Below, piece after piece: positions 1,911-44,899 of a stretch of 64,000 nucleotides of DNA (position 1 is the first letter of the stretch; each line of letters opens with the position of its first letter). The stretch lies in assembly GCA_964228865.1 (NCBI GenBank), contig CAXRAI010000058.1, forward strand, positions 2,011 to 66,010, in the 5' to 3' direction. The notes beneath the pieces were generated by a model. That model searched no databases. It was not told where the DNA came from and worked only from the letters and a program-made list of their open reading frames with translations. The translations under genes and the position numbers were made by a program. The DNA comes from Salinimicrobium sp. (GTDB lineage: Archaea > Thermoplasmatota > Poseidoniia > Poseidoniales > Poseidoniaceae).

Positions 1911-1966
1911 CGCAACCGGTTCTGCCTTCGCGCATTCGGGTTCAAGCCTTCCCTTCTGGCGTCTGA

Positions 1967-3019
1967 TTGAAGGGGCGCACCCGCACCGTGCTGGGCATGG
2001 AGGGTACGCCACAAATCGCCCTCATGTTGCTGGTGCTTGGCCTGCTGACGTGGGCTTGGCCTCGAAGCCTCCCCAACCAAAGGATGGATGATCTTCGTCG
2101 CTGGCTGCCGTTGGTCGGTTGGACGTGGGCCATGCTCTCGCGCATCAGCGCGGCCTTCAACCCCACCCAGTGGCCTCATTTCGCCGCCAGGTTGGGGGCA
2201 GAAGCCACCGTGTTCGAGCGTTTGGCTGCGGTGGTCTCAGGAGACGGGCTTGTTCTCATCGGGATGGCCGTGCCGCTGTGGTGGACCGCCCTAGATCGCC
2301 ACGAGGACAGTGCTTGGCGACGGGCGGAAGTCGTCCTGCCCTTGGCGCTTCTCGCCATGCTTGGTCTCGAAGGCGGTCTGGAACACGTCGCATCCTCCCC
2401 GAACAGCGCCACAGTCGCTGCGACGTGGTGGGACGGGTTCCTCTGCCTGTTTGTGCTGGCTTTGGGTGCAGCGTGGATGGAATGGCGTCCTGCCGTCTCA
2501 ATGAGCCTTTGCGGACTGGCATCGCTGGCCACCCTTCTGGTGTTCTTACCGATGGTGGAGGCCGACCCTGGCCTGCAAGCAGCACGTGGACCTGGGTTGC
2601 TGGCCGCCTCCACAACCCTCGCGTTGGCCCCTCGCAGGTTCCCTCGTCCATCCATGGCCGCACCGCAAGGGTTGGCCGTATGGTTGGTCCTCAGCATGGT
2701 GCTGAGTGTCGTCGCGATGCTCGCCTTGCTGCCTCCCTATGGTGGATTTGAGGCGTGGGCGGTGGTCGGTGTTGTGCTGCGCACCGCCACGGTGGTTGCC
2801 GCCACCGCCATCGTCGCCCTACTCTCGTTGAGGCTTGGTCTGGACGCTCAAGCCCAAGCCACGTGGTCCATGGGTCGAAGGGCGTGGAGCATCACGCCCA
2901 TGATGTTGCTCGTGGTGTTGCCCGCAGTGCCGCTTGTGGCTGCCTCGATGCTCGTCGGTTCGTGGTCGGCATGGGCACTGCTTCGGTGGTGGCCTGTGGG
3001 TTCGGAAAACGGTGCTTGA
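1967..3019 (+). CDS. Polytopic membrane protein, unknown function
   Basis: 350-aa ORF made almost entirely of Leu/Ala/Val/Trp-rich hydrophobic segments (8 or more predicted TM spans). Divergent from the methyltransferase gene. Start uncertain. Confidence 0.5.
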   Translation: MKGRTRTVLGMEGTPQIALMLLVLGLLTWAWPRSLPNQRMDDLRRWLPLVGWTWAMLSRISAAFNPTQWPHFAARLGAEATVFERLAAVVSGDGLVLIGMAVPLWWTALDRHEDSAWRRAEVVLPLALLAMLGLEGGLEHVASSPNSATVAATWWDGFLCLFVLALGAAWMEWRPAVSMSLCGLASLATLLVFLPMVEADPGLQAARGPGLLAASTTLALAPRRFPRPSMAAPQGLAVWLVLSMVLSVVAMLALLPPYGGFEAWAVVGVVLRTATVVAATAIVALLSLRLGLDAQAQATWSMGRRAWSITPMMLLVVLPAVPLVAASMLVGSWSAWALLRWWPVGSENGA

Positions 3020-3102
3020 AACCCAAGGTAAGACCGAGCCGCTTATGAGCGAAAGGGGCAGGAAGGCTCGGGGCGTCTCCGGACGACCCGGATGGGATTT
3101 GC

Positions 3103-3456
3103 ATGGGTCGAGCCTTTCGCTGTGGCGTTGAAAACAAACGAAAATTGAACGCCAGAGCCACGGCCAAGCGATGGCCTGTTCGGGACCTTGCGCCCCTCAT
3201 TGCCCGGACTCAAGAATCTGGAAAAGCCATGGGGCCTGCAACGCCAATCGAGGCCCTGATCCGAATTGAGGGCGACTCGTGGATGTTTGAGCGCGCCGAT
3301 CCGAGCGCGTTGGCGGCCGCACGTCACCGCATTGTTGTGCATGAAAACGGGGCGCCGCTCAGCCTCGGCGGCTGCACAGACATGTCGACGGCGTTGGACG
3401 TCGCTCGGAAGATGGCCGAAGTTGACGGTCGTGTCGTGCTGATTCAGAACCTCTGA
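3103..3456 (+). CDS. Small hypothetical protein (117 aa; alternative start 3229 gives 75 aa)
   Basis: ORF only, no recognisable motif. The ATG at 3103 sits in a 17-nt context repeated at the start of the 35425 gene. Confidence 0.35.
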   Translation: MGRAFRCGVENKRKLNARATAKRWPVRDLAPLIARTQESGKAMGPATPIEALIRIEGDSWMFERADPSALAAARHRIVVHENGAPLSLGGCTDMSTALDVARKMAEVDGRVVLIQNL

Positions 3457-5262: not shown

Positions 5263-6342
5263 TCAGGCCTGTTCCAAACCGAGGACACTCGCCGAAGGCG
5301 TGACGTCTTCGAGCGTCTTCTCATCCACTCCGGTGGGCATGCTCGCTCGAGCGGCTTGCGCCCGGTGGTACACCTCCCGAAGGGTTTGATCGCCGATTTC
5401 GAGGTAGACGCGCGTGGTGGCGATGCTGGCGTGACCCAGCAAGCGTTGGATGCTGACCAAATCAGCACCTCGTTCCAACAACCCTGTGGCGAAATTGTGG
5501 CGCAAGACGTGCGGCGTGAGCCGGCCACGCGGCAAACCTGAGGCGACCGACAGATCCTCCATCAAGCGCTGAACGCTCCTCGGGGTCAATCGAGCGCCTC
5601 GTCGGTTGACCAAGACCGGTCCAGAGGCCTCTTCGGTGCGCAACGCGCGTTGCTCGAGCCACAGGTGAAGTTCATCCAGGGTGCGCTCTGTGAACAGCAC
5701 CAGGCGATCCTTGTCACCTTTGCCAGACCGCACCATGGCCGACTGGTCGTCCACGTCGACCGCGTCCAAATCCAAGTCACAGATTTCGCTTACACGCAAT
5801 CCCGTGTCGAGCATCATCGTCACCACGACACGCGCCAGAGGGTCCTCATGCCACCGAGCGGCCTCCAACACGTCACTGAGTTCTCGACGCGTCAGCGTTC
5901 GTGGCAAACGGCGACCGGTGCGGGCCCGGACCAGGTGTTCTGGCCACCGGTGGCCAAGCCAATGGAGCAGGTGACGAGCCGCGGCCAGTTTTGTGTTGAA
6001 CGATGAGGGTTTCAAGTCAGAGAGGCTGTGCACCCAGCGGTCCAAACGGCCGTTCAACGGTTCAACGCGTTCCGCCACTTCCCCCACGCTCAGTGCGTCC
6101 ACATCCTCCAAGTGCGGTTCACCAGGGAGCATGGTTTCCAGCATCGGCCGGATGGAGGTCAGGTAGGTTTTGCGGGTGTTTTCCGACTTTCCTTCAGTGC
6201 GCAGCTGCTGGAGGTAGCACTCCAACCAAGGCAAGCGAGAAAGGTGGTGAAGGCGAGGAGGCAAATCGACGTGCTGCCCCTCATCCAAACGACGTTGACT
6301 GGGTCGAAGTGCCCGTCGTTCTCGTGAAGGTCCCGCGTCCAT
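5263..6342 (-). CDS. xerA: Tyrosine recombinase, XerA/XerCD-like
   Basis: C-terminal catalytic signature HVLRHNFATGLLERGADLVSIQRLLGHASIATTRVYLEI (HxxR ... Y). N-terminal SAM-like core-binding region. Start uncertain. Confidence 0.8.
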   Translation of the reverse strand: MDAGPSRERRALRPSQRRLDEGQHVDLPPRLHHLSRLPWLECYLQQLRTEGKSENTRKTYLTSIRPMLETMLPGEPHLEDVDALSVGEVAERVEPLNGRLDRWVHSLSDLKPSSFNTKLAAARHLLHWLGHRWPEHLVRARTGRRLPRTLTRRELSDVLEAARWHEDPLARVVVTMMLDTGLRVSEICDLDLDAVDVDDQSAMVRSGKGDKDRLVLFTERTLDELHLWLEQRALRTEEASGPVLVNRRGARLTPRSVQRLMEDLSVASGLPRGRLTPHVLRHNFATGLLERGADLVSIQRLLGHASIATTRVYLEIGDQTLREVYHRAQAARASMPTGVDEKTLEDVTPSASVLGLEQA

Positions 6343-6430: not shown

Positions 6431-7630
6431 TCAGACGGCCGCTTCGTCAGGGCCAGCGTCGAACGGGCTGTCGCTCACGCTCTCCGAACAGCGTACAACG
6501 GCTGCCCGGACGGTGCTGCGCAAGCTCGTGCGTGGTCCGGTGCAGAGGACGAGATCGTCAAACCGTAGGCGTGTGTCTGGCCCTGGGTTCCACATCATGT
6601 GTGAGTTTCGTGCGATGGCGAAGGTTTCGATTTCACCGTGAAACACGTCCTCAAGGCTGCGTCCAATCAACCCCGGGTGACGGCGGACCTGCAGCGTCAC
6701 CACGCCTTCGTCGGGCAGCATGCGAAGCAATCCGTCGATCTCGACGTCCCCGAAGCCGGCTTCCTGTATGGCGTGGTCCACGATGGCGCCCGCAACGTTC
6801 ACACCGCTGGCCATCTCGATGCCCTGCAAACCGGGGCTTGAGTTCACTTCGAGGACCATGGGGCCGTTGTTGCCCTCCAAGAGGTCAACGCCCGCGATGT
6901 TCAGGCCAAGCACGCGGGCAGCGCGCCGGGCCACGTCTGCAAACTCATCCGGCAAGTCGAGTGATTCGACGGTGCCGTTGAGGTGGAAGTTTGAGCGGAA
7001 TTCCCGTCCACGGGCGCGCCGGCGCATGGCGGCCACCACCTCGTCCCCGACGACGATGACTCGGACGTCACGGCCGTGGCTTTCTGCGACGTACTCCTGA
7101 ATCAAGACATCCCGGCGTGCGTGCAACAGACCCTGAACGAGGCTTTTGGCTTCGTAAGCCGTATGACGCAGGAAGACCCCTTGGCCTTGTGTGCCTTTGG
7201 TGACCTTGACCACCACAGGCAGCCCTCCGACCGCTTCGATGGCGTGGTCAACGTCCCTCACGTCCCTCACGTTCATGGTGCGAGGAATTGGGATGCGGTT
7301 CCGGGCCAGAATCTGGCTTGCACGGAGTTTGTCCCTGCTTTGCAGGATGCCCGCAGCACTGTTTGAGGACCAGACGCCCAGTTGATCCAAGTGGCGCAGC
7401 AACGCCGTACCGTGTCCGGTGATGGAATGCCCAATGCGAGGGATGACCGCTTCGTGCTCGAACGGCTCGCCGTTCACGAGGACCTCAACACGCCCCTCGT
7501 CGACAAACATCGAGCACGTCAACGGGTCGATGATCGCCACATCAAGGCCACGCTCACGGGCTTCCTCCACCAAACGGCGGGTGCTGTAGAGGCGAGGGCC
7601 CCTGGACAGCACGGCGAGGCGGAGGTCCAT
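6431..7630 (-). CDS. rimK: RimK-family ATP-grasp alpha-L-glutamate ligase with a C-terminal TrkA_C/RCK_C-like domain
   Basis: REFRSNFHLNG, LEVNSSPGLQGIE and the ATP-grasp core are present. The extra ~100 aa C-terminus (VVTLQVRRHPGLIGRSLEDV...DDLVLCTGP) resembles TrkA_C. Start at MDLRLAVLSRG. Confidence 0.8.
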   Translation of the reverse strand: MDLRLAVLSRGPRLYSTRRLVEEARERGLDVAIIDPLTCSMFVDEGRVEVLVNGEPFEHEAVIPRIGHSITGHGTALLRHLDQLGVWSSNSAAGILQSRDKLRASQILARNRIPIPRTMNVRDVRDVDHAIEAVGGLPVVVKVTKGTQGQGVFLRHTAYEAKSLVQGLLHARRDVLIQEYVAESHGRDVRVIVVGDEVVAAMRRRARGREFRSNFHLNGTVESLDLPDEFADVARRAARVLGLNIAGVDLLEGNNGPMVLEVNSSPGLQGIEMASGVNVAGAIVDHAIQEAGFGDVEIDGLLRMLPDEGVVTLQVRRHPGLIGRSLEDVFHGEIETFAIARNSHMMWNPGPDTRLRFDDLVLCTGPRTSLRSTVRAAVVRCSESVSDSPFDAGPDEAAV

Positions 7631-9434: not shown

Positions 9435-11558
9435 TTGACGGATGCATCCCGCCTGACGGTCGCCAAACTCAAGGCGCTGTGTGTGCTTCACGACCTGCCA
9501 ACGGGTGGACGGAAAGCAGACTTGGTTGAGCGCCTCTTGGCGGCTGGCCTTGACCGCACCACCCTCGGTCTTTCTGAGGCTAAACCCCCAGAAGCGGGCG
9601 ATGAAGAAGTCATCTCACTCGAACCGGAACCAGAACCCGTCGCCGCGGAGGTGGAAGAGGTTTCATTGGAAGCGGACGTGCCCCTGCCTTCCGCCCGAGA
9701 GGACGAGGTGTTGGAAGCTGAGGTGCTGGAAGCCGAGATGCTCGACACAGAGGAAGAAGACCGGCTTGAACCCCCTCCTGTCGTGCCGCTCCCCGGGTCC
9801 AAACCCTCGGGGCCCACCACGCTGCTTGACATGGTCAAAACGCCAAAAGCTGCGGCCGTCGTTCTTGTGCTTCTGCTGGTCGGGGCCGGTGGCTGGTATT
9901 GGGTCGGCCAACAGCTTCAGCCGGTCACCGTTGATGCGCTTCGCTACGGTGACCAAATGGGCTTCATCCTCGTGGACGGGGAACTGACCGCAACCGAGGG
10001 CTTTGTTGAACCCGTGATCGAACAATTGGACATCGAAGACGACATCTGTCGGCTGGAGGTCTCATTTTCTGGCACTGGCGACGTGGCGGTGCACCAGGGC
10101 ACCATGCTCGACATTCCTTCGCAGGGCTCGGATGACCGTCTTCTCGGGACCGTGAGCGTGCGAGGAGCCCACGGTGCGGAGTGGTTGGCCGTGCAACAGG
10201 AAGCCACCTATGACCTCGATGAATTGGTCGTGAAGCGACATTTGCGCTCCATCGTTCCGGGCTCCAGCGATTGTTCCAGCAGTTCGGCTTCTGCCAGCGG
10301 CGCGGCTGAGCTCACATTGACCTCATGGACCGAAATTGGAGACCGTGTGAACCTCCGAACGAACGCAGATTGGGAGATTGACCTTGAGGGCGTGGTTCGT
10401 GGTTCAACCACCACCTACGGCGTCGGGGGCCTGCTTGGCTCCTTCGAAGTCTTCGCACCGGGCATCGCCATGTTGTCACAGCCTGTGGAATTGCAGTCCC
10501 TTGTGGGCACGGTACCGATCGAGAAAGGTGCGACAGGCACGGGTCTTGGTTGGGATTGGTCCGTGATTGGCGCCGAAGATTTTGCCGGGAAACGCATGTG
10601 GCGCATCGTGGCGACTCAACCGGATTTGAGCACCTATTGTTTGGGAAGCGCGACCCTTTCGATGTGGGTCGAGGCCGACAACCCTTGGGCCAGCCGGCAA
10701 ACGGTTGACGTGCGGTTGTCCGCCGACAACACAGGCCAACAGGATTGCTCAACCCTCTCGAAACAGCTCGGAGATGCGGTCCTTCCCGACGGAGAATTCC
10801 GACTGACCCATACCTTCGAGCGCACCTCGCTCAGCAGGGGCGACGACCGCTTGGACCTCGGCACGACCTATGTTGGTCGTCCAAGCCCAAGCGAACTCGG
10901 GGCACCGGAGGAGTCCTTGGTGACCTGGACGCGCAACGCCAGCCACGTCCCTGACGGGGCGCCGGCCGCCACCACCACCTTGGAGGACGCCGTCGCATGC
11001 TTGCGCTCTGTGGGCTCGTCTGCATCGGGTGCAAATGCTGCACTGGACAACGAGGGTTACATTTGGCGCTCCGTGGGCGATTCGGGTGGAGAAGTGGACG
11101 CTTGGAACCTCTCTTGGGTCGGTACGGACGATGCTCACGGCTGGGTCCGCGTGGACGTCGGTGCCGGTGAGAACGGAGGTTGTACCTTCGTGAGCAAAGA
11201 ATCGCAAGACCTCGGCATTGTGTGGAACCGTGATTCGGCACCGGCCGTGTTGACGATGGAGGAGGTCGAAGGCATGCTGATTGCCGAGGGGCGCTTCCCA
11301 GAATTCGTTGGGGCCAGTGGGCTGTTTGGGGCCAGCGGCGATCACAACGAAGGGCTACGACGGGGCGTGCTGGTGGCGGTCCCTGACGACGGATTGACGG
11401 GGCTGATCAGCGAATTGGTCGACGGAGACGCTGGAGCCACCACCTACGATTTCGTTCGGACTTGGGAAGCACAAGGATGGGAATCGACGCTGAGCGTGGC
11501 CGTTGACGCCAGCAGCGGCAGGGTGTTGGCGACCTCACTCGTCGAGCGGCCGGCGTGA
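9435..11558 (+). CDS. Single-pass membrane protein: N-terminal SAP/HeH motif, acidic linker, TM helix, ~540-aa extracytoplasmic domain
   Basis: LTVAKLKALCVLHDLPTGGRKADLVERLLAAGL matches the SAP motif pattern. It is followed by an E/P-rich linker and TM AAAVVLVLLLVGAGGWYWV. TTG start as given in the ORF track. Confidence 0.6.
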   Translation: MTDASRLTVAKLKALCVLHDLPTGGRKADLVERLLAAGLDRTTLGLSEAKPPEAGDEEVISLEPEPEPVAAEVEEVSLEADVPLPSAREDEVLEAEVLEAEMLDTEEEDRLEPPPVVPLPGSKPSGPTTLLDMVKTPKAAAVVLVLLLVGAGGWYWVGQQLQPVTVDALRYGDQMGFILVDGELTATEGFVEPVIEQLDIEDDICRLEVSFSGTGDVAVHQGTMLDIPSQGSDDRLLGTVSVRGAHGAEWLAVQQEATYDLDELVVKRHLRSIVPGSSDCSSSSASASGAAELTLTSWTEIGDRVNLRTNADWEIDLEGVVRGSTTTYGVGGLLGSFEVFAPGIAMLSQPVELQSLVGTVPIEKGATGTGLGWDWSVIGAEDFAGKRMWRIVATQPDLSTYCLGSATLSMWVEADNPWASRQTVDVRLSADNTGQQDCSTLSKQLGDAVLPDGEFRLTHTFERTSLSRGDDRLDLGTTYVGRPSPSELGAPEESLVTWTRNASHVPDGAPAATTTLEDAVACLRSVGSSASGANAALDNEGYIWRSVGDSGGEVDAWNLSWVGTDDAHGWVRVDVGAGENGGCTFVSKESQDLGIVWNRDSAPAVLTMEEVEGMLIAEGRFPEFVGASGLFGASGDHNEGLRRGVLVAVPDDGLTGLISELVDGDAGATTYDFVRTWEAQGWESTLSVAVDASSGRVLATSLVERPA

Positions 11559-11770
11559 GCCGTTGAGCCTCCGAACCCTGTTTGAAGCGGCGAGTTGGCC
11601 GTCACCTCCAAAGCCTCCGCGTCGCGCATGGTCCATCGATGGGAGAGCGCGGTCGTCAGGTGACCGTTGGCGAGGCAGAGTTTGAGGAGCTTCCTCAGGC
11701 CGCCCCTGCTGCCAGCACGGCCGACGAAATTGGGCCTGCGAAAATCCGCGCGCCGCTCGAGTTGCCGCCC

Positions 11771-12574
11771 ATGCAACCCTCCACCCAAGGTCTGGCACGC
11801 GTCGTCGCGGTAACCAACCAGAAGGGAGGGGTTGGAAAAACCACGACCGTGATCAACCTCGCCGCGAGTTTGGCGGCTTCAGGTCAGCGTGTGCTCGTGG
11901 TCGATCTGGATGCGCAAGGCAACTGTGCCACGGGCTTAGGCATCGACAAGTCGAGGGTTGACCTGACGACACGTGACCTCCTCCTCACGCCTGAACGGGC
12001 GGCTGAATGCAGGTATGCCACCCGAATCCCAACCCTCCATGTCGTGGTTGGCGACCGGAGGCTTGTGTCGGTAGAGGACGCGATTTTGTCGGATCTCGGA
12101 CGCGAATCACGCTTGGCAGAGGGGCTTGCACCCTTGCTGCCGCATTATGACCTGGTGCTCATCGATACGCCTCCCAACCTTGGTGTGCTGGCCATCAACG
12201 CCCTCTGTGCAGCCGATGGCGTGGTCGTGCCTGTGCAAACCGAATACTTCGCACTTGAAGGACTGGCCATGCTGCTGTCAACGGTTGAACAAGTGCGCCG
12301 TCGCTTGAATCCCGGGCTCGGCATCGACGGTGTGCTGATGACGATGCACGCGCCGACCCTCTTGAATCAGCAGGTGGCCAGTTTGTTGCGGGAACATTTG
12401 GGAGACGTGGTCGTTGAACCCCCCATCCGCCGGAACATCCGTTTGGCCGAAGCGACGAGCCGTGGCGAACCCATTCACGTCCACGCGCCCAATTCTAACG
12501 GCGGACAGGACCACCAAGCGGTGTCGAACGCCCTCGCCTCCCGGTGGGGCTTGGTCCGGGGGCGCGGAGCATGA
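11771..12574 (+). CDS. parA: ParA/Soj-family chromosome-partitioning ATPase
   Basis: Deviant Walker A NQKGGVGKTTT, DLDAQGNCATGLG, LIDTPPNLG. Start at MQPSTQGLARVVAV (the track ORF extends upstream to 11582). Confidence 0.88.
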   Translation: MQPSTQGLARVVAVTNQKGGVGKTTTVINLAASLAASGQRVLVVDLDAQGNCATGLGIDKSRVDLTTRDLLLTPERAAECRYATRIPTLHVVVGDRRLVSVEDAILSDLGRESRLAEGLAPLLPHYDLVLIDTPPNLGVLAINALCAADGVVVPVQTEYFALEGLAMLLSTVEQVRRRLNPGLGIDGVLMTMHAPTLLNQQVASLLREHLGDVVVEPPIRRNIRLAEATSRGEPIHVHAPNSNGGQDHQAVSNALASRWGLVRGRGA

Positions 12575-12966
12575 GCGAGCGTGGCTTGGGGCGTGGTCTC
12601 GATCACTTGATCGAACAAAACGCCACCGAACTTGGCTTCCTCGACGCTTACGGGCCCACTCCAGAAGAGGCCCTTGGTGAGATCTTCGATGCGGCATGCC
12701 ATGCCCTCAACGCGCTCAATGGAACACGGACCGAGGATGCGTACGAAACAGAAACCCTCCTGCTCCAAAGGGAGGCCGATGGGACACGGCTCACATGGCG
12801 TGGCCAGCATTTGCCGCTGGTGGCCAGTGATTTGCGGCTGCCCGGTATGCGCGAAGGCATGCTTTCAGACGCTCGGGACATGGCCGAGGTGACCTTCGTG
12901 GATTGGACGCTGGACGTTCGTCGCTGCTTGGAGCGGGTCGTCGAACACCACTCAGGGCCGCCGTGA
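12571..12966 (+). CDS. 131-aa protein with a ParB/Spo0J-type N-terminal peptide (RGLGRGLDHLI) but no ParB/HTH domain
   Basis: Its ATG overlaps the parA stop (ATGA). The N-terminus MSERGLGRGLDHLIEQ mirrors bacterial ParB N-termini. The remainder has no GxRRxRA or HTH motifs. Confidence 0.55.
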   Translation: MSERGLGRGLDHLIEQNATELGFLDAYGPTPEEALGEIFDAACHALNALNGTRTEDAYETETLLLQREADGTRLTWRGQHLPLVASDLRLPGMREGMLSDARDMAEVTFVDWTLDVRRCLERVVEHHSGPP

Positions 12967-37985: not shown

Positions 37986-40388
37986 ATGCGAGCGCTTCGT
38001 GCGGTCCTGCTCACCGTCTTGTTTCTTCTCGGGACCTTCGCCCTGTCGGCGTCGGCTTCCCTGATTGATGGGGGTGTGATTCACCAAGGTCCAGACCCCG
38101 TGGAGTTGTGGTACTCCTCCGGTGGGGATGAAGTGTTGAGCCTCGACGATGAAGGGGTGTTCATGGCGCTTCGCTGGAACGGAGGGGCCTATCAGGTGAC
38201 CCGAGCCGTTGACCTGAACGTCACCGTCAACGCGGTACGTTTGGACATCGATGCCTCCTTGTTGGCGGTCGGTCACGCAGGCGGCGCTTTGGTGCTCGAC
38301 CTTGACACCGATCAAGTGACCTTCGAAGTCTCCCTTCCCGATCCTGTGGACGACATCGATTGGGACAACGACGGTGACTTGTGGGTCGTGCACAACGGTG
38401 GCTTGCGCCAAGCCATTGAGCATGAGACTGGAGGCCCCTCTGGTGTGCGGACCAGCGTCATGAGCGCAGGCATCTGTTCGCTGCTCATTCTTGACGATGG
38501 CCGTGTGTTGACGGGTGGATTTGACGCTCGTCTGCGCGTCCACACGAACGATGGCATCCTGGATCAGGATTTGACCGGCCTTGGTGGCGCACCAACCCAA
38601 CTCATCGGCGCCGGTGACCAGGTCTGGGCCGGTCTTTCCAACGGAGATGTGGTGCGTTGGAACACCACCACGTGGTCGTCCGAGGAGGTGAACAGCGGGT
38701 CAGCGCCGGTCTCATCGCTCACGCTCGACGGAGAAGGCGGTGTGTGGGTGGGCCACCAAAACGGCGTGACGGTTCACTTGGACAGCACCTTGACGTCCAC
38801 CCAGGAACACCAAACGACGGGGAAAGTCATCAGTGTGGTCAACAAGGACGACGGGACGGTCCACTTGGTTAGCATCACCTCCACCAGCACACGTGTGCGT
38901 TTGCTCGACCTCGATGCAGACGGTGATGGCGTGGCGGATGCGGTGGACGCCTTCCCTGATGATGCAGGACAAACGGTGGACAGCGACGGGGACGGCTACG
39001 GAGACAACACCGCCCTCTCGGGCGGTGACGCCTTCCCAAACGACCCCACTCAATGGGCGGACCGTGACGGGGACGGGTATGGCGATGAAGCAGATGGCAC
39101 CAACGGTGACGTGTTCCCTGACAATCCCGATCAATGGGAAGACGCTGACGGCGACGGTGTCGGCGACAACCAAGCGGACCCGGACGGCGATGCCTTCCCT
39201 GAAGATCCAACCCAATGGGCGGACCGTGACCGTGACGGATTTGGCGACGCTGCAAACGGCGTCCGGCCGGACGATTGTCCAGACGCCAACGGCTTTTCCT
39301 CCAACGACCGTCGGGGTTGTCCAGATCAGGATTTGGACGGTTGGTCCGACCCTGACGCCAACTGGCTGCTGGCCCAGGGCGCGGATGCCTTCCCCTCCGA
39401 CAAGACCCAATGGGAGGATTTCGATGGTGACGGGTATGGGGACAACCCCGACGGCACGACGCCTGATGCTTGCATGACCGCGGGCGGCACCTCCGTACGG
39501 GCGCTTGTGCCCGAACTTGGGGCCACCACGAAGTACGTCAGCGAAGCCCACTACGGTTGCCCTGACCTGGACGGCGATGGATGGGCTGACGCTTCTGAAG
39601 TGGGCGAGGGCATGGCCTCAAACCCTGACGAGCACATGGACCTCGACGGAGATGGCGTCGGCTCCAACACCGACTACAACGACACGAACCCCCTGGTCAT
39701 CGACATCGAAGACCATTGCCTGCTCAGTTTCGACGACCTTCGGGAAGTGTGCCTCGGCTGGAGGAGCACGGAGTACCAAGAGTACCTGTCCACGTTGAAC
39801 GAATCTGAACGCAACCGCATGTCGTACAATTACTGGAACCAGAGCCTTGCCGGTACGTCCTCCAGTGGAGGCTTGGACATGGCCTTGGTCACAGAAGTTG
39901 GAATTGTTGCGGCGGGTGTCTTCGTGGTGTGTTCTGTGGTGGTGGTCCTGCTCGGAGCCATGACCAAGCGCGTCAAGCGCCCCTCAGAGGAGAAAGCCTT
40001 CTCGTCGTTTGAATTCGATGGGAATGCAAACGAAGAAGCGTTGACCGGCAAGGCTGGCCTTTCGGCCATCGGCGGGCTCGATGATGATCTCTGGGGCGAT
40101 GACCAACCCGCTCCACCCCTTGAAGCCCCGGCTGAAGGCGAGGAGAAGGATGTGCCTGAGGTCACCTCCATGGTCGAGGACGTGGTGCTCCAGACCGAGG
40201 ACGCCATCTCGCCGGCGCCTGAACCAGCGGCAGAGGCCACGAATTCAAGCCCCGCAGAGCCCTCAAACGAGGGTGAGCCAGAGCAGGAGGCTCCCCCGGT
40301 GCCCGAGGGCGGATTGCCAGATGGCTGGACGATGGACCAGTGGAAATGGTACGGCCATCAATGGCTTGAGCAAAATCAGGAATCCTGA
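37986..40388 (+). CDS. Surface protein: signal peptide, beta-propeller-like region, thrombospondin type-3 (Ca-binding) repeats, TM, acidic cytoplasmic tail
   Basis: MRALRAVLLTVLFLLGTFALSASA. About 10 DxDGDGxxD repeats (DSDGDGYGDN, DRDGDGYGDE, DADGDGVGDN...). TM VGIVAAGVFVVCSVVVVLLGA. C-terminal LPDGWTMDQWKWYGHQWL. Confidence 0.75.
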   Translation: MRALRAVLLTVLFLLGTFALSASASLIDGGVIHQGPDPVELWYSSGGDEVLSLDDEGVFMALRWNGGAYQVTRAVDLNVTVNAVRLDIDASLLAVGHAGGALVLDLDTDQVTFEVSLPDPVDDIDWDNDGDLWVVHNGGLRQAIEHETGGPSGVRTSVMSAGICSLLILDDGRVLTGGFDARLRVHTNDGILDQDLTGLGGAPTQLIGAGDQVWAGLSNGDVVRWNTTTWSSEEVNSGSAPVSSLTLDGEGGVWVGHQNGVTVHLDSTLTSTQEHQTTGKVISVVNKDDGTVHLVSITSTSTRVRLLDLDADGDGVADAVDAFPDDAGQTVDSDGDGYGDNTALSGGDAFPNDPTQWADRDGDGYGDEADGTNGDVFPDNPDQWEDADGDGVGDNQADPDGDAFPEDPTQWADRDRDGFGDAANGVRPDDCPDANGFSSNDRRGCPDQDLDGWSDPDANWLLAQGADAFPSDKTQWEDFDGDGYGDNPDGTTPDACMTAGGTSVRALVPELGATTKYVSEAHYGCPDLDGDGWADASEVGEGMASNPDEHMDLDGDGVGSNTDYNDTNPLVIDIEDHCLLSFDDLREVCLGWRSTEYQEYLSTLNESERNRMSYNYWNQSLAGTSSSGGLDMALVTEVGIVAAGVFVVCSVVVVLLGAMTKRVKRPSEEKAFSSFEFDGNANEEALTGKAGLSAIGGLDDDLWGDDQPAPPLEAPAEGEEKDVPEVTSMVEDVVLQTEDAISPAPEPAAEATNSSPAEPSNEGEPEQEAPPVPEGGLPDGWTMDQWKWYGHQWLEQNQES

Positions 40389-40652
40389 TCAGGACCACTT
40401 GACGGGCAGGTCTGCACGTAACTTGGCCAATTCCTCACCGGAATAGAGGGGTCGCCCTCCTTCCTTGACGGTGCTTTGAATGAGCCAAAGGACGCCGTTC
40501 CAAGCGCTACGCGATGCGGTGATTTCGACGTCACCCCGGGCGGCGACGTTCATGAGCTCGGCTTCAGCCGTGGTCGAATCAAAGAGGGCCTTGACGAGAT
40601 GACGGGTCTCGAAGGCCACCTGAGGTGGCTTCCAACTCATCATGGCGTTCAC
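40389..40652 (-). CDS. Small hypothetical protein (87 aa), translationally coupled to the upstream RHH gene
   Basis: Its GTG start overlaps the RHH gene stop (GTGA); alternative ATGs lie 6-9 nt downstream. No recognised motif and no PIN signature. Confidence 0.45.
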   Translation of the reverse strand: MNAMMSWKPPQVAFETRHLVKALFDSTTAEAELMNVAARGDVEITASRSAWNGVLWLIQSTVKEGGRPLYSGEELAKLRADLPVKWS

Positions 40653-40891
40653 ACCCTGAACGGAGCGAGGTTCAACCGCTCGACGAGGTGGTCGACATCG
40701 ACGTCAGCCGTGGCTTTGGCGCGTTCACGCAGCAGCTCGAGGCTACCGTCCATACGCGCCATGCGCTGGTGACGAATGAGGTCGAGCAGGACCTCATTCA
40801 CGCTCTTGTAACCGCCCAGCGAGCGCAAGGTGTTCAACTGTCTTCGTACTTCGTAGCTCACGCTCACCGAGGTCATTCCCTTCGCTGTCAT
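40649..40891 (-). CDS. Ribbon-helix-helix (CopG/VapB-antitoxin-like) small DNA-binding protein
   Basis: TSVSVSYEVRRQLNTLRSLGGYKSVNEVLLDLIRH fits a beta-strand-helix-helix pattern. 80 aa, immediately downstream of a parA homologue. Confidence 0.55.
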   Translation of the reverse strand: MTAKGMTSVSVSYEVRRQLNTLRSLGGYKSVNEVLLDLIRHQRMARMDGSLELLRERAKATADVDVDHLVERLNLAPFRV

Positions 40892-40920
40892 CGTGCATCC
40901 CGCTTGGTCGTGCCCTCTTT

Positions 40921-40938
40921 GCGCTACTTAAGGCGCGC
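40921..40938. promoter_or_regulatory. Imperfect 18-bp palindrome GCGCTACTTAAGGCGCGC in the parA-RHH intergenic spacer
   Basis: 14 of 18 positions are self-complementary around a CTTAAG centre. It lies 30-50 nt upstream of the RHH start, so it is a candidate operator or centromere-like site. Confidence 0.3.
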
Positions 40939-40981
40939 GTGAGCCGATTCCGCCGGAGTGCGATTTGTGGACCCTTTCCGT

Positions 40982-41944
40982 TTAGCGGCGCCCTTGTGCC
41001 TCAAGGGAGACCCTGGACGGGTCGCGGACACCAAATTCTCGTCGCATGTCCTGCACACGCCGATGGAATTCACGGGCCAAGGTCCAGTATTCGAGGGACC
41101 CCGCACCTGCTCCAGAGGAGGTCGGCTTGTTGAGCAACACCGTGGGTGCGCCCGACCAAGGAGCTTCTGCCACGTTCACCAGGCGCCGAATGGAAGTACT
41201 GAACAGCTTGTTCGGGATGCTCAGCGCCACCTGATCGCACACGTGGCGGGAAAGTTTCGAGCGCGCGTCCACCATGGTCATGACCACGCCGAAAATCTTC
41301 AGGTTCCGGTTGATTCGACGCTGAATCATCTTGACCGAGTTCATCAGCATGCTGAACCCTTCCAACGAGTAGTACTCCGCTTGGACGGGAACCATGACCC
41401 AGTTCGCAGCGCTGAGGGCGTTGATGGAGAGCAAGCCAAGGGAAGGTGGTGTGTCGATGATGATGTAATCAAAATGATCGATGATGGGAGCCAAGGCCTC
41501 TTTGAGGCGCGTTTCGCGACCGATCTTGTGCGACAATTCAATTTCAGCCCCAGAGAGGTGAATGTCGCTGGGCAACAACCAGAGGTTCTCGGTGGTCAAA
41601 GTCGCTGGAGGGCGGCCTTTCTCGTTGCGCAGCATCCACGCGTTGCGCATCGAAGCCGTAAGGTCCTCAGGGCCGATGAGGTACTCGTCCATCAGTGGGA
41701 GTTCTTCTCCGAGATCGTTGGTCAGAAGGTCGTAGGCCGTCTTCTTCACGCGCTTCTTTTCGATGCCGAATGAGGTGGCGCAGTTGCCTTGCGGATCCAA
41801 GTCGATGAGCAACACCTTCGCAGGAGGCAAGCCCATTTTTTGATGGCCACGTGCCAAGGCAGCGGCAAGGTTGACCGCCGTGGTCGTCTTTGCGCAGCCG
41901 CCCTTCTGGTTGGCGACAGCGATGACCATCTTGTACGGGTCCAT
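40982..41944 (-). CDS. ParA/MinD-superfamily ATPase (second copy, 320 aa, with insertions and a basic C-terminal tail)
   Basis: Deviant Walker A NQKGGCAKTTT, DLDPQGNCATSFG, IIDTPPSLG. Confidence 0.82.
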   Translation of the reverse strand: MDPYKMVIAVANQKGGCAKTTTAVNLAAALARGHQKMGLPPAKVLLIDLDPQGNCATSFGIEKKRVKKTAYDLLTNDLGEELPLMDEYLIGPEDLTASMRNAWMLRNEKGRPPATLTTENLWLLPSDIHLSGAEIELSHKIGRETRLKEALAPIIDHFDYIIIDTPPSLGLLSINALSAANWVMVPVQAEYYSLEGFSMLMNSVKMIQRRINRNLKIFGVVMTMVDARSKLSRHVCDQVALSIPNKLFSTSIRRLVNVAEAPWSGAPTVLLNKPTSSGAGAGSLEYWTLAREFHRRVQDMRREFGVRDPSRVSLEAQGRR

Positions 41945-42005
41945 GCCTTCACTCCCGGGACGTGGAACTCCGGCTCTCCCCTATCAACCCCGGCCTCAAT
42001 CCGCA

Positions 42006-42989
42006 TCAAACGGGCTGAACAACGGGGACGGGAACTTCGGACAGGATCTTGCGAACGATGTGACCGCCGGTGATACCTCGAATCTTGGCCTCGGGCTTCA
42101 TGACGATCCTGTGGCTGATCACCTGCATCGCGACGCTCTTGATGTCGTCAGGAACAACGTAGGTTCGCCCGGCGATTGCGGCCGAGGCTCGACCGGTCTT
42201 GAAGAGGGCTTGCGAGGCACGGGGCGACGCGCCGTTGACCACACGGTGGTCCTCACGCGTGCGCTGCACGATTTCGACGATGTAGGCGAGGATGGACGGG
42301 TCAACGTGGACGCCTTCCAAGGCCCGTTGCATGGCGACGACTTTCTTGGGTTCTGTGACCTGAGCAACCTCGTGGTCGTCCTTTCCACGCATCTTTCGGC
42401 GGGCGAGGATCGCCTTCTCTTCGGCGCGGTCCGGGTAGCCCATGCTCATCTTCATCAGGAAGCGGTCCATTTGAGCCTCGGGCAGAGGGTAGGTTCCTTC
42501 CTGCTCGATGGGGTTCTGAGTGGCCAACACCACGAATGGGGCTGGGAGTTTGTGGGTGATGCCTTCGATCGTCACCTGCTTTTCTTCCATGGCCTCAAGC
42601 AACGCCGCTTGGGTCTTTGGAGGGGCACGGTTGATTTCGTCAGCCAGCAGGATGTTGGAAAAGAGCGGCCCCGCTCGGAGTTTGAAATCACCCGACTTCT
42701 GGTCGTACATGTAGGTCCCCATGATGTCCGAGGGCAACAGGTCAGGCGTGAACTGAACACGCTTGAACTTGCATCCCAAGGCACGGGCGAAGGTGTTTGC
42801 AAGCAGGGTCTTGGCAAGACCCGGAAAGTCCTCGAGCAACATGTTGCCGTTGGAGAGGATGCCGACGCTGACACGTCGGAGGTTCTCTTCCTTTCCAATG
42901 ATGACCTTCCCAACCTCGCTCATGAGGTCGTTTGCAATTTGGGAAACGGTGCTGATGATTTTCGCGGTGTTCGCATCGGCGGCCTGCAT
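42006..42989 (-). CDS. MoxR-family AAA+ ATPase
   Basis: GLAKTLLANTFA (Walker A variant), LLADEINRAPPKTQAALLEAMEE, ATQNPIEQEGTYPLPEAQMDRF. Confidence 0.88.
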   Translation of the reverse strand: MQAADANTAKIISTVSQIANDLMSEVGKVIIGKEENLRRVSVGILSNGNMLLEDFPGLAKTLLANTFARALGCKFKRVQFTPDLLPSDIMGTYMYDQKSGDFKLRAGPLFSNILLADEINRAPPKTQAALLEAMEEKQVTIEGITHKLPAPFVVLATQNPIEQEGTYPLPEAQMDRFLMKMSMGYPDRAEEKAILARRKMRGKDDHEVAQVTEPKKVVAMQRALEGVHVDPSILAYIVEIVQRTREDHRVVNGASPRASQALFKTGRASAAIAGRTYVVPDDIKSVAMQVISHRIVMKPEAKIRGITGGHIVRKILSEVPVPVVQPV

Positions 42990-43066
42990 CCTATCACCTA
43001 TTCATCACAGTACGGCTGTCCATCCATATTTGAACGTGCTTGCGGGCCACGTCACCCCTGCATCAC

Positions 43067-44899
43067 TCAACGGGCCCAGAAGTGGTTCTCTTTTCTGTGC
43101 AGCCGCACGATTTCGTCGAGGATTTCCTCCTCCACGGCCGTCAATTCCACTTTGCGGAGCCGACGTGCATGTGATTCAGGGACGTCCACCAGGAACTCAT
43201 CGCCTTCGTTGATGTGTCGGCCGACCGTCGGGCCTTGGATGGCGCAGGCGACCTCATCACCTTGGTTCGCTTCACGTACGTCTTCGCTGTCGCGGGTCCG
43301 AAGGGACTTCACTTGGCCGACCTGTGATCCGTCGGGGCGCATGAGGCGTTGGCCGATGTGCACCCGTCCTCCGATGACCCTTACACCGATGATGGCGGGA
43401 TCACGGCCGCGGAAGGTGTGGTTTTCGAGGTAAAGCAAGCGACCGGGGTGGACCAGATCTTCCCGTGCCGCTGCCTCGGCGGCTGCTTTGGTGTCCGCTC
43501 GCCAGGTTTCGATTTCATCGATGATGTGGTAGATGATCTCCCCCGCCACGAATTTGACTGGAGCATCCTCTGCGGTCAGTCGGTCGGCAACCTCACGGTT
43601 TGGAGCGATGGAAAAACCTGCAATGATTCGATTGAGGGGATCTTTGGCGGATTCCGCGGTCAGGATGTCCCGCTTGTTCACGGGTCCAACGGTCGCCATG
43701 CGAATGGGGATGTCCAGTTGTCCCAGCTCGAAGGCCAGGGCTTCCAACCCACCGATGGTGTCTGCCTTGATGACGACGCCTTCCTCTTGCAGATCGATGT
43801 CGACACGGCATTCCTCGTGGCAAGCAGCGATGGCCGCCTCGAGGGCCGCTTCGTCCTTGGCCAATCGGACGGTCGTTCCCGCCAAGGCACGCTCCAAGCC
43901 TTGAGCGACGATTTTGACGCCACAGGCCGCTTCGACGTGATCGACGGATTCCCATCGGTCGCCCGCATCCCGCATCTCAGCCATGCCTCGTGGTCGCTTC
44001 AGGCCCTTGATGCGCGTCGTGGCAGGGCCGTCGGAAGTGGCGAACACAATCCGATCGCCGGTACGCAGGATACCACGGGACAGGATGACGTCAATGGTTT
44101 TGCTCATCCCCACTTCGTCCTTCATTTCGAGGATGGTCCCCTCCGCATCGCCGAGGGTGTCCGTCAACCGGTCCTCAAGGAAACGTTCAGCCAAACCCAC
44201 GGTCACCGTCAGCAGGTCCTGAAGGCCCTCGCCTTCCTTGGCCGACATCGGGACCAGGGCCACATCGCTGCGGAAATCCTTGATGCGGTCGTAGCGTTCG
44301 AGGTTGAATCCATGTTCGCCAAACATGCCGACGAGTTTCCAGAATCGATCCTCGAAGAGCGCCTGCACGTCTTTGCGTTGGTCGTGGAAGGACGCGATGA
44401 AGGCACGCCCTCGCTCCGAAGACCATCCGTGCAAACGATCCACTTTGTTGCCCGCGACCACGAAGGGTGTTCGGGTTCGACGGAGGATTTCCAGGCTCTC
44501 AATGGTTTGAGGCTGGAGACCTTCCATGATGTCCACCACGAGGATGGCGATGTCGGCCAACTGCCCGCCACGGGAGCGGAGTGACGTGAACGAGTGATGG
44601 CCGGGGGTGTCGATAAACAACAGGCCGGGTGACTTGAAACTCCGTCCTCCCATCATGGCGGCACACGTGTCGTTCAACACGTCAGCAGGAACTTCAGTCG
44701 CGCCGATGTGCTGCGTGATACCACCCGCTTCCCGGTCCATGACCGAGGCTTGGCGGTCCACGCCGATGGAACGGACCAAGTCGAGAAGGCTGGTCTTGCC
44801 GTGATCGACGTGCCCGAGCACGCTGACGATCGGTTGTCGGTTTTCACCGCGTTCTGGGGTTTCCTCTTCAGGGGCGGGTGATTCCGCCTCGTCAGACAT
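43067..44899 (-). CDS. infB: Translation initiation factor aIF5B (IF-2 homologue)
   Basis: VLGHVDHGKTSLLD, DTPGHHSF, GNKVDR. 610 aa. Confidence 0.93.
   Translation of the reverse strand: MSDEAESPAPEEETPERGENRQPIVSVLGHVDHGKTSLLDLVRSIGVDRQASVMDREAGGITQHIGATEVPADVLNDTCAAMMGGRSFKSPGLLFIDTPGHHSFTSLRSRGGQLADIAILVVDIMEGLQPQTIESLEILRRTRTPFVVAGNKVDRLHGWSSERGRAFIASFHDQRKDVQALFEDRFWKLVGMFGEHGFNLERYDRIKDFRSDVALVPMSAKEGEGLQDLLTVTVGLAERFLEDRLTDTLGDAEGTILEMKDEVGMSKTIDVILSRGILRTGDRIVFATSDGPATTRIKGLKRPRGMAEMRDAGDRWESVDHVEAACGVKIVAQGLERALAGTTVRLAKDEAALEAAIAACHEECRVDIDLQEEGVVIKADTIGGLEALAFELGQLDIPIRMATVGPVNKRDILTAESAKDPLNRIIAGFSIAPNREVADRLTAEDAPVKFVAGEIIYHIIDEIETWRADTKAAAEAAAREDLVHPGRLLYLENHTFRGRDPAIIGVRVIGGRVHIGQRLMRPDGSQVGQVKSLRTRDSEDVREANQGDEVACAIQGPTVGRHINEGDEFLVDVPESHARRLRKVELTAVEEEILDEIVRLHRKENHFWAR

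What the first reader, a model, noticed from the sequence alone, without database searches (positions are those of the whole stretch)
40389..42989. moxR - parA-like - RHH - 87-aa ORF gene string: possible type Ib / SegAB-like partition cassette on an archaeal chromosome
All four genes are on the minus strand with short gaps (61 nt and 90 nt, then a 4-nt overlap). The ParA homologue has the deviant Walker A KGGCAKTT, insertions and a basic tail. It is followed by an 80-aa ribbon-helix-helix protein. Small RHH centromere binders partner ParA-type ATPases in type Ib systems (ParF-ParG of TP228, delta-omega of pSM19035). The archaeal SegB partner of SegA is reported to use an RHH fold. The third gene, an 87-aa protein coupled by GTGA, has no recognisable family. 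A MoxR AAA+ gene directly upstream of a ParA is not the usual MoxR-DUF58-VWA context.
Basis: partly seen in the sequence, partly recalled or inferred. Interest (0 to 1): 0.6.

Follow-up and report, generated by a model that had tools for sequence, protein, structure and literature searches.

The report
ParA gene with disarmed toxin-antitoxin-like pair
In marine Poseidoniales archaea a second, divergent ParA ATPase gene is always followed by two small genes built like a toxin-antitoxin pair whose "toxin" has lost its catalytic residues; the three may form an undescribed positioning system, but that link is inferred, not shown.

Summary
The four minus-strand genes are real: MoxR, a Soj-type ParA ("ParA2", KGGCAKTT, two inserts, basic tail), an 80-aa protein and an 83-84-aa protein.

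The string is ancestral to the order Poseidoniales, not unique to this genome. The 80-aa gene occurs in 147/149 Poseidoniaceae genomes sampled. In 80/80 further species it lies between ParA2 and the small gene.

All three genes are under strong purifying selection (dN/dS 0.016, 0.05, 0.08).

The 80-aa protein has a ribbon-helix-helix (RHH) pattern at its extreme N-terminus, followed by a C-terminal helical extension. That is the layout of an antitoxin, not of ParG, omega, SegB or HpaB.

The small protein folds with high confidence (pLDDT 95) into a truncated PIN-like domain with no conserved acidic residues. So the pair looks like a domesticated VapBC/FitAB-type module.

ParA2 is close to bacterial Soj and far from SegA. 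No ParB domain was found in the genome, which is 85% complete.

One streamlined Thalassarchaeaceae clade lost the RHH gene, the mini-PIN gene and the ParA2 C-terminal tail together, yet kept MoxR-ParA2. This is the only specific hint of a functional link.

No centromere repeats were found. ParA2 and the RHH gene each have their own conserved promoter-like block.

The scan reached the same reading earlier on another genome (e1-2789500).

Verdict: a new variant of ParA-plus-RHH systems, of moderate interest.

The parts
42006..42989 (-). MoxR-type AAA+ ATPase (327 aa). No DUF58/VWA partner in cis. Exceptionally conserved: 75-87% identity across the order.
   Evidence: Pfam AAA_3 2.3e-65, AAA_lid_2 2e-20. 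Identities. The paralogue with a DUF58 neighbour is on contig 16.
41976..41991 (-). Conserved promoter-like block (GGGGTTGATAGGGGAG in the window; consensus GcaTTGAa-AGgGGAG) in the MoxR-ParA2 spacer, about 40 nt upstream of the ParA2 ATG.
   Evidence: Alignment of 31 unique Poseidoniaceae upstream regions. Promoter function is inferred.
40982..41944 (-). ParA2: a divergent Soj-type ParA ATPase (320 aa). Walker A is KGGCAKTT. It carries two inserts. The Soj nsDNA-binding Arg (PRNVRL) is replaced (IRRLVNV).
   Evidence: AAA_31 4.4e-53. PDB: ParA 8ray 2.5e-50, Thermus Soj 3e-42, SegA 4e-15. Alignment. dN/dS 0.016.
40985..41047 (-). ParA2 C-terminal tail (about residues 300-320, ..RREFGVRDPSRVSLEAQGRR). 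Present where the RHH and mini-PIN genes are present, absent in the clade that lost them.
   Evidence: Alignment. Matches end at residues 299-304 in RHH-less genomes and at 311-320 in the others.
40921..40941 (-). Conserved promoter-like block upstream of the RHH gene (consensus TTCGCnnGGGTTAAGTA; TTAAGTA at 40925-40931). It overlaps the window's 18-bp imperfect palindrome.
   Evidence: 79 unique Poseidoniaceae upstream regions, with at least 90% conservation of TTCGC and G-TTAAGTA. TTAAGTA occurs once in the window. The palindromic symmetry is not conserved in other genera.
40649..40891 (-). 80-aa protein (75 aa if it starts at the second ATG, 40876). Probable N-terminal ribbon-helix-helix (invariant MTSVSVS strand, R16 R17 N20, G-x-x-S30 turn) plus a C-terminal helical extension of about 35 aa.
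   Evidence: Alignments A2/A4. AF2: H13-26, H31-62, H66-72, pLDDT 66. Weak Pfam hits: DUF7557 in 5/30 members, RHH_1 and VAPB_antitox in 1 each. Non-significant Foldseek hits are to RHH antitoxins and NikR. dN/dS 0.05.
40389..40643 (-). 83-84-aa truncated PIN-like protein (mini-PIN) without conserved acidic residues. An order-restricted orphan family.
   Evidence: AF2 pLDDT 95.1, pTM 0.82. Foldseek top hits are nearly all PIN/VapC: 1y82, 4xgr, 3zvk, with prob up to 0.92 and TMq 0.53-0.58. Invariant residues are only W47, N48, L78, P79. Only 43 representatives among 1.84 billion proteins. Weak PIN_3 hits in 2/19 members. dN/dS 0.08.

Best explanation
The locus is an ancestral, vertically inherited module of the order Poseidoniales (Marine Group II archaea). 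It is made of three separately promoted units.

1. A MoxR AAA+ gene.
2. ParA2, a divergent paralogue of a bacterial-type Soj ATPase. It keeps the signature and catalytic lysines, but has two inserts, a replaced nsDNA-binding arginine and a C-terminal tail.
3. A tightly coupled two-gene unit. Its first product has an N-terminal ribbon-helix-helix DNA-binding domain and a C-terminal helical extension. Its second product is a catalytically dead, truncated PIN-like domain.

Unit 3 has the architecture of a VapBC/FitAB toxin-antitoxin module that has been disarmed and domesticated.

Inferred mechanism:
- RHH dimers bind DNA through the N-terminal beta-ribbon.
- Their C-terminal extensions grip the mini-PIN, as VapB and FitA grip their PIN partners.
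- Mini-PIN dimers bridge RHH dimers into a higher-order DNA-bound complex.
- That complex acts as the ParB-less partner or adaptor of the ParA2 ATPase, docking on the ParA2 C-terminal tail. The complex probably also represses its own promoter.

What is shown: gene content, folds, conservation, purifying selection and the co-loss pattern.
What is inferred: DNA binding, RHH/mini-PIN complex formation, any contact with ParA2, and the cargo.
For: - Linkage: ParA2 lies upstream and the mini-PIN gene downstream of the RHH gene in 80/80 species loci and in all three families of the order. The RHH gene is present in 147/149, 2/2 and 42/149 genomes of families f1, f2 and f3.
- All three genes are under strong purifying selection. 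The RHH gene is single-copy in this genome and has no viral homologues.
- Fold: the mini-PIN model has pLDDT 95 and its top structural hits are PIN/VapC. The low-confidence C-terminal extension (pLDDT 52-63) fits a region that folds on binding a partner.
- Coupling to ParA2: the RHH-less genomes form one well-supported clade (100/99). That clade lost the RHH gene, the mini-PIN gene and the ParA2 C-terminal tail together. Its ParA2 identity to the window falls to 44-51%, against 58-61% in RHH-bearing Thalassarchaeaceae, while aIF5B stays at 57-58% against 58-62%.
- Context: no ParB_N domain in the genome. ParA-plus-RHH partner systems are established in archaea: SegAB (PMC8682754) and HpaAB (PMC13722703).
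Against: - The co-loss is a single evolutionary event in a genome-streamlined clade, so it is effectively n=1.
- ParA2 persists intact without the RHH and mini-PIN genes in that clade. It therefore has a function that does not need them.
- The RHH gene has its own conserved promoter-like block. The wider neighbourhood, from PRPP synthase to the coiled-coil gene, is also syntenic across the order. Adjacency alone is therefore weak evidence.
- The RHH protein lacks the N-terminal ParA-activating tail of every characterised RHH partition protein.
- No iterated centromere-like repeats occur in or beside the locus.
- The locus is about 150 kb from the nearest cdc6 gene in near-complete Poseidoniaceae genomes, and about 550 kb away in G027.
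- RHH assignment rests on sequence pattern and weak hits only.
- A second, more canonical Soj (ParA1) lies 30 kb away, with a partner that carries a ParB-like N-terminal peptide. It is a better candidate for the chromosome-segregation ATPase.
Confidence: 0.4

Rival explanations
1. The RHH/mini-PIN pair is a domesticated toxin-antitoxin remnant that now works on its own, for example as a transcription-factor complex that controls its own promoter or other genes. It sits next to parA2 only through inherited synteny. ParA2, possibly with MoxR or an unlinked partner, does something unrelated.
For: - The pair has its own conserved promoter-like block.
- ParA2 stays intact where the pair is lost.
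- The whole region is syntenic across the order.
- The RHH protein has the antitoxin layout and no ParA-activating N-terminal tail.
- FitAB/VapBC complexes are established autorepressors (established knowledge of those families).
Against: - The ParA2 tail was lost, and ParA2 divergence accelerated, in the same clade that lost the pair.
- The pair has not moved away from parA2 in more than 200 species.
Confidence: 0.33
2. It is a classical type Ib or SegAB-like two-component partition system. The RHH protein alone is the centromere-binding partner of ParA2, and the 84-aa gene is incidental.
For: - The gene order is ParA then RHH.
- There is archaeal precedent in SegAB and HpaAB (PMC8682754, PMC13722703).
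- No ParB domain was found.
Against: - ParA2 is Soj-like, not SegA-like.
- The RHH protein has no N-terminal activating tail and no similarity to SegB, ParG or omega.
- No repeats were found.
- The 84-aa gene is co-inherited and co-lost with the RHH gene, with a spacer of about 6 nt, and is under purifying selection.
Confidence: 0.07
3. The last two genes form an active VapBC-type toxin-antitoxin (addiction or defence) module.
For: - The gene order is antitoxin then toxin, with a very short spacer.
- The fold pairing is RHH plus PIN-like.
- JGI product names are 'CopG family antitoxin' and 'nucleic acid-binding protein'.
Against: - There is no conserved acidic quartet. Only W47, N48, L78 and P79 are invariant.
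- The protein is 83 aa, against about 130-145 aa for PIN toxins.
- It is single-copy, sits at a fixed locus and is inherited vertically across an order.
- The family has only 43 representatives among 1.84 billion proteins and is absent from viral contigs.
Confidence: 0.04
4. MoxR and ParA2 are the functional pair: an AAA+ remodeller with a ParA-type positioning ATPase for a non-DNA cargo. The RHH/mini-PIN pair is a lineage-specific accessory or regulator.
For: - MoxR-ParA2 adjacency holds in every Poseidoniales genome examined, including the RHH-less clade.
- This MoxR lacks a cis DUF58/VWA partner.
- ParA2 has lost the Soj DNA-binding arginine.
Against: - A 222-aa membrane-protein gene is inserted between MoxR and ParA2 in one genus.
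- ParA2 has its own promoter-like block.
- The adjacency is part of a longer syntenic block.
- I know of no precedent for a MoxR-ParA partnership (my own knowledge; no literature search was made for this pairing).
Confidence: 0.1

Closest known systems
VapBC / FitAB type II toxin-antitoxin modules (RHH antitoxin plus PIN toxin)
   Same: The gene order is small RHH protein then PIN-fold protein, with a spacer of a few nucleotides. The RHH domain sits at the extreme N-terminus and is followed by a C-terminal extension. The second protein has a PIN-like fold.
   Different: The PIN-like protein is truncated to 83 aa and has no conserved acidic catalytic residues. The pair is single-copy, vertically inherited and fixed beside parA2 across an order, and it is not on viruses. 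There is no significant sequence match to any VapB/VapC family.
Type Ib plasmid partition systems (TP228 ParF-ParG; pSM19035 delta-omega)
   Same: A deviant-Walker-A ParA without an N-terminal HTH is followed by a small, probably RHH, DNA-binding protein. The RHH gene is preceded by a conserved block that could serve as an operator.
   Different: ParG and omega carry a flexible N-terminal tail that activates the ATPase, and their RHH domain is C-terminal. Here the RHH domain is N-terminal, with at most 5 residues before it. There is a third gene, no iterated repeats, a chromosomal setting, and a long Soj-like ParA.
Archaeal SegAB (Sulfolobales) and HpaAB (Haloferax pHV3)
   Same: Each is an archaeal ParA-family ATPase gene followed by a gene for an RHH DNA-binding partner (PMC8682754, PMC13722703). 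HpaA, like ParA2, is described as of bacterial origin.
   Different: ParA2 matches SegA only at 4e-15. SegB and HpaB interact with their ATPase through an N-terminal region (residues 1-33 in SegB, a 12-residue helix in HpaB), and that region is absent here. Neither known system has a PIN-like third component. No centromere has been identified here.
Bacterial chromosomal Soj/ParA-ParB-parS
   Same: ParA2 is most similar to Soj structures (8ray 2.5e-50; Thermus Soj 3e-42) and keeps the Walker A, A' and B motifs.
   Different: No ParB_N domain was found in the genome. The Soj R189-equivalent is replaced (N here; K, Q, S, D, A or I in orthologues). There are two inserts and a C-terminal tail.

Membership tests
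Type Ib partition (ParF-ParG / delta-omega) | Deviant Walker A ParA ATPase without an N-terminal HTH domain | tested here: met
   KGGCAKTT begins at residue 14. AAA_31 4e-53. No N-terminal domain. However, it is 320 aa and Soj-like, not a 200-230-aa type Ib ParA.
Type Ib partition (ParF-ParG / delta-omega) | The partner is an RHH-fold dimer | tested here: inconclusive
   Strand-helix-turn(G-x-x-S)-helix pattern with invariant residues. Weak Pfam RHH_1 and DUF7557 hits. The AF2 monomer has pLDDT 66, and Foldseek matches to RHH proteins have E above 3.
Type Ib partition (ParF-ParG / delta-omega) | The partner has a flexible N-terminal tail that stimulates the ParA ATPase | tested here: not met
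   Only 0-5 residues precede the beta-strand, with no conserved basic residue. The extension is C-terminal instead.
Type Ib partition (ParF-ParG / delta-omega) | Iterated centromere or operator repeats beside the operon | tested here: not met
   No repeat family stands out in 40300-43100. There is only a single conserved promoter-like block.
SegAB | The ATPase is orthologous to SegA | tested here: not met
   SegA (7dut) 4e-15, against Soj/ParA structures at 1e-37 to 1e-50.
SegAB | The partner is homologous to SegB (N-terminal SegA-activating region plus RHH) | tested here: not met
   No SegB match by sequence or profile against PDB. SegB is not among the 17 Foldseek matches. No N-terminal region is present.
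VapBC/FitAB toxin-antitoxin | The antitoxin gene comes first, the toxin gene second, tightly coupled | tested here: met
   The spacer is 5-8 nt, or a 4-nt overlap with the GTG start. The median gap is 6 nt in 80 species.
VapBC/FitAB toxin-antitoxin | The second protein has a PIN fold | tested here: inconclusive
   High-confidence model (pLDDT 95). Top Foldseek hits are nearly all PIN/VapC, but the best E is 0.1, prob 0.92 and TMq 0.53-0.58. PIN_3 hits in 2/19 members at E 0.067. It covers only about the first 60% of a PIN domain.
VapBC/FitAB toxin-antitoxin | Four conserved acidic active-site residues | tested here: not met
   Across 19 orthologues the invariant residues are W47, N48, L78 and P79. 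The position after strand 1 varies (E/D/T/R/G/N).
VapBC/FitAB toxin-antitoxin | Patchy, multi-copy, mobile distribution | tested here: not met
   One copy per genome, at a fixed locus, order-wide. The RHH gene has no match in viral contigs; the mini-PIN could not be searched there. The mini-PIN family has 43 representatives.
Bacterial ParABS | A ParB with a ParB_N (CTPase) domain is encoded in the genome | tested here: not met
   PF02195 has no match in the 85%-complete genome.
MoxR-DUF58-VWA operon | A DUF58 or VWA gene adjacent to MoxR | tested here: not met
   The DUF58 matches are on contigs 14 and 16 only. The contig 16 copy lies beside the MoxR paralogue.

The most novel reading that the evidence does not exclude
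A toxin-antitoxin module (RHH antitoxin plus PIN toxin) was disarmed and recruited as the DNA-bound partner of a horizontally acquired Soj-type ParA. This would create a three-component, ParB-less segregation or positioning machine in the ancestor of the most abundant planktonic archaea. The dead PIN domain would serve as the oligomerising or ATPase-docking adaptor.
Probability: 0.3. Interest if true: 0.7.

Novelty: new variant of a known kind. Interest (0 to 1): 0.5.

Why it matters
Chromosome segregation in archaea is understood only for SegAB in Sulfolobales and, recently, HpaAB in Haloferax. Nothing is known for Marine Group II, one of the most abundant archaeal groups in the surface ocean, which has no cultured member (my own knowledge).

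If the trio works together, it would be a third architecture for archaeal ParA systems. It would also be a clear case of a toxin-antitoxin module being converted into a cell-biological adaptor.

Even if it does not, the pair is a clean example of a vertically fixed, catalytically dead VapBC-like module under strong purifying selection. That invites the question of what a dead PIN domain does.

Tried and rejected
1. Palindrome as the RHH binding site. Earlier notes (e1-3528356/7) describe a genome-wide palindrome, TTYCAATTGRAA. Perfect copies average 6.6 per genome in RHH-bearing Thalassarchaeaceae genera and 1.6 in RHH-less genera. They persist in 77% of RHH-less genomes, against a control of about 0.1. 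The palindrome does not depend on the RHH protein.

2. The window's 18-bp CTTAAG palindrome as an operator (e1-3528363). The core TTAAGTA and the upstream TTCGC are conserved in 79 loci, but the dyad symmetry is not. I read it as a promoter-like element, possibly with an operator.

3. Iterated repeats in 40300-43100. None stand out.

4. Linkage to the replication origin. The cdc6 genes are about 150 kb away in three Poseidoniaceae genomes and about 550 kb away in G027.

5. Co-loss of the Trp-rich cytoplasmic tail of the convergent 800-aa envelope protein. Rejected: the same C-terminal motif occurs on several other large proteins in RHH-less genomes.

6. Sequence and profile searches of both small proteins against Pfam, NCBIfam, PHROGs and PDB. 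Nothing significant.

Uninformative.

8. Viral contigs. There is no RHH relative. The mini-PIN alignment was too variable for that tool.

9. Sister order(s) in the class. No ParA2 or ParA1 at E of 1e-30 or better in 40 genomes.

11. Complex prediction was not possible.
Full report
**Observation.** The window comes from a Poseidoniaceae (Marine Group II) archaeon. Every named relative of the small genes is a Poseidoniales MAG, among them the first closed MG-II chromosome, CM001443.1.

Four minus-strand ORFs sit at the stated coordinates:
- MoxR, 42006-42989 (AAA_3 2e-65).
- A ParA-family ATPase, 40982-41944 (AAA_31 4e-53).
- An 80-aa ORF, 40649-40891.
- An 87-aa ORF, 40389-40652. Neither small ORF has a Pfam or NCBIfam match.

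The gaps of 61 and 90 nt are correct. The 87-aa ORF most likely starts at ATG 40643 or 40640, giving 84 or 83 aa, because its relatives begin MMSW/MSW. That leaves a 5-8 nt spacer rather than a GTGA overlap.

**Conservation.** The neighbourhood is L7Ae-S28e-L24e-NDK-aIF5B-MoxR-ParA2-80aa-84aa, followed on the opposite strand by an 800-aa propeller/TSP3 envelope protein and an 838-aa charged-helix protein. This order recurs in distant Poseidoniaceae contigs and in all three families of the order.
- An HMM of the 80-aa protein finds it in 147/149, 2/2 and 42/149 genomes of families f1, f2 and f3.
- In 80 further species-representative loci, ParA2 is directly upstream and the small gene directly downstream in 80/80.
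- Pairwise dN/dS is 0.016 (ParA2), 0.05 (80 aa) and 0.08 (84 aa). All three are working proteins.
- Neither ParA paralogue is found at E of 1e-30 or better in 40 genomes of the sister order(s) of the class. The module is therefore an innovation of the order.

**ParA2.**
- Its best structural relatives by sequence are bacterial ParA/Soj (8ray 2.5e-50; Thermus Soj 3e-42). SegA scores only 4e-15.
- It keeps KGGxxK[T] but with Cys-Ala (KGGCAKTT).
- Relative to Soj and to the window's other ParA it has an insert of about 7 aa and one of about 40 aa.
- It has a tail..RREFGVRDPSRVSLEAQGRR.
- The Soj motif PRNVRL is IRRLVNV here. That motif's second Arg is the nsDNA-binding R189 of B. subtilis Soj (established knowledge). 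The position is K, Q, S, D, A or I in orthologues.
- A second paralogue, ParA1 (11582-12574, KGGVGKTT, RRNIRL retained), lies 30 kb away. It is followed by a 131-aa protein that begins MSERGLGRGLDHLI, which matches the ParA-binding N-terminal peptide of ParB.
- No ParB_N domain is found in the genome, which is 85% complete.

**The 80-aa protein.** Thirty orthologues share an invariant MTSVSVS(Y/F)E-RR-LN segment, then a G-x-x-S turn and a second helix. This is the classical RHH strand-helix-turn-helix pattern, and it sits at the very N-terminus.
- The AF2 monomer gives helices 13-26 and 31-62, and a weakly predicted C-terminal part (pLDDT 52-63).
- Independent support is weak: DUF7557 in 5/30 members, and RHH_1 and VAPB_antitox in one each. 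The non-significant Foldseek matches are to RHH antitoxins (ParD, PrpA, MazE-mt1) and NikR, not to ParG, omega or SegB.
- I rate the RHH assignment at about 0.8.
- The protein has no N-terminal tail. That tail is what SegB (residues 1-33), ParG (R19) and HpaB (a 12-residue helix) use to contact and activate their ATPase (PMC8682754, PMC13722703). It has a conserved C-terminal extension of about 35 aa instead, which is the layout of an antitoxin.

**The 83-84-aa protein.** AF2 gives a very confident model (pLDDT 95.1, pTM 0.82) with topology b-a-a-b-a-bb-a-b.
- Its top Foldseek hits are almost all PIN domains and VapC toxins: 1y82, 4xgr, 3zvk, 4chg, and the SMG5 and Utp24 PIN domains. Prob reaches 0.92, TMq is 0.53-0.58 and the best E is 0.1.
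- Two orthologues give weak PIN_3 hits. JGI names some copies 'predicted nucleic acid-binding protein'.
- It is only about 60% of the length of a PIN domain. Its invariant residues are W47, N48, L78 and P79, with no acidic quartet, so it is not a nuclease.
- The family has 43 representatives among 1.84 billion proteins.

**Transcription units.** About 45 nt upstream of the RHH start lies a block, TTCGCnnGGGTTAAGTA, conserved at 90% or more in 79 unique Poseidoniaceae sequences. TTAAGTA occurs once in the window. The dyad symmetry noted in the window is not conserved.

A second conserved block (GcaTTGAa-AGgGGAG) precedes ParA2. I infer at least three transcription units: MoxR, ParA2, and the RHH/mini-PIN pair.

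**Evidence for or against a functional trio.** Small-genome Thalassarchaeaceae genera lack the RHH gene.
- In four such genomes MoxR and ParA2 are still adjacent after aIF5B, but nothing follows ParA2.
- These genomes form one clade (100/99) in an aIF5B+MoxR tree, so this was a single loss.
- In the same clade ParA2 ends at about residue 300, without the tail.
- In that clade ParA2 has diverged more from the window (44-51% identity) than in RHH-bearing Thalassarchaeaceae (58-61%). aIF5B barely changes (57-58% against 58-62%).

This is consistent with the pair working through the ParA2 tail. But it is one event in a streamlining lineage, and it also shows that ParA2 works without the pair.

No repeats mark a centromere. 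The locus is 150 kb or more from cdc6. The genome-wide palindrome TTYCAATTGRAA is four times rarer in the RHH-less genera but still present there.

**Conclusion.** The locus is not SegAB, not a classical type Ib cassette and not an active toxin-antitoxin module. My best reading, at about 0.4, is this: a domesticated VapBC/FitAB-like RHH/mini-PIN complex binds DNA and serves as an accessory or adaptor of the Soj-derived ParA2.

The main rival, at about 0.33, is that the pair is an independent regulator kept beside parA2 by synteny.

An earlier follow-up in this scan reached the same 'ParA, RHH and mini-PIN trio' reading on another genome (e1-2789500). I arrived at it independently. I add the single-clade co-loss of the ParA2 tail, the separate promoter-like blocks, the selection estimates, the replaced DNA-binding arginine and the ParA1/ParB-peptide context. 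My paper searches turned up nothing on a ParA system in Poseidoniales or on a ParA partner with a PIN-like component.

Noticed in passing
window 11582-12966 (+): A second, canonical Soj-type ParA (KGGVGKTT, RRNIRL retained) is followed by a 131-aa protein with no Pfam domain. Its N-terminus, MSERGLGRGLDHLI, matches the ParA-binding N-terminal peptide of bacterial ParB. This may be a minimal ParB remnant and the real chromosome-segregation pair.
   Followed up: partly
L137 (G027:C1) 1125-2111 (-); L138 (G023:C5) 2399-3352 (+): In one streamlined Thalassarchaeaceae genus the same ParB-like peptide (KRGLGRSL / GRGLGRGLEDV) stands at the N-terminus of the open frame of a multi-pass membrane protein of about 320 aa, directly after ParA1. 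This suggests a ParA-interaction peptide fused to a membrane protein.
   Followed up: no
window 9435-11558 (+): A 707-aa protein with an N-terminal SAP DNA-binding domain (1.4e-9) lies directly upstream of ParA1.
   Followed up: no
window 42006-42989 (-): This MoxR is 75-87% identical across the whole order, whereas the neighbouring translation factor aIF5B is only 44-63% identical. That is unusually strong constraint for a MoxR with no cis partner. It also scores over the Pfam cut-off for bpMoxR (MoxR-vWA-beta-propeller systems), and a beta-propeller envelope gene lies convergent to the locus.
   Followed up: partly
window 40285-40388 (+), end of the 800-aa envelope gene: The Trp-rich cytoplasmic C-terminal motif (GGLPxGWTxxQWxWYGHxWL) is nearly invariant across families. 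It also ends several other proteins of 1000-1600 aa in other Poseidoniales genomes, so it looks like a shared C-terminal sorting or docking signal.
   Followed up: partly
L053 (G027:C1) 5473-6141 (+); L055 (G023:C5) 5336-6007 (+): A membrane-protein gene of about 222 aa is inserted between MoxR and ParA2 in one genus.
   Followed up: no
L056 (G019:C4) 6572-7474 (-): This RHH-less genome's ParA2 has KGGCARTT, with Arg in place of the catalytic Walker A lysine.
   Followed up: no
L125 (NZEQ01000094.1): A contig carrying this Poseidoniales locus is deposited in a MAG labelled Verrucomicrobiales. This is probably a binning error.
   Followed up: no
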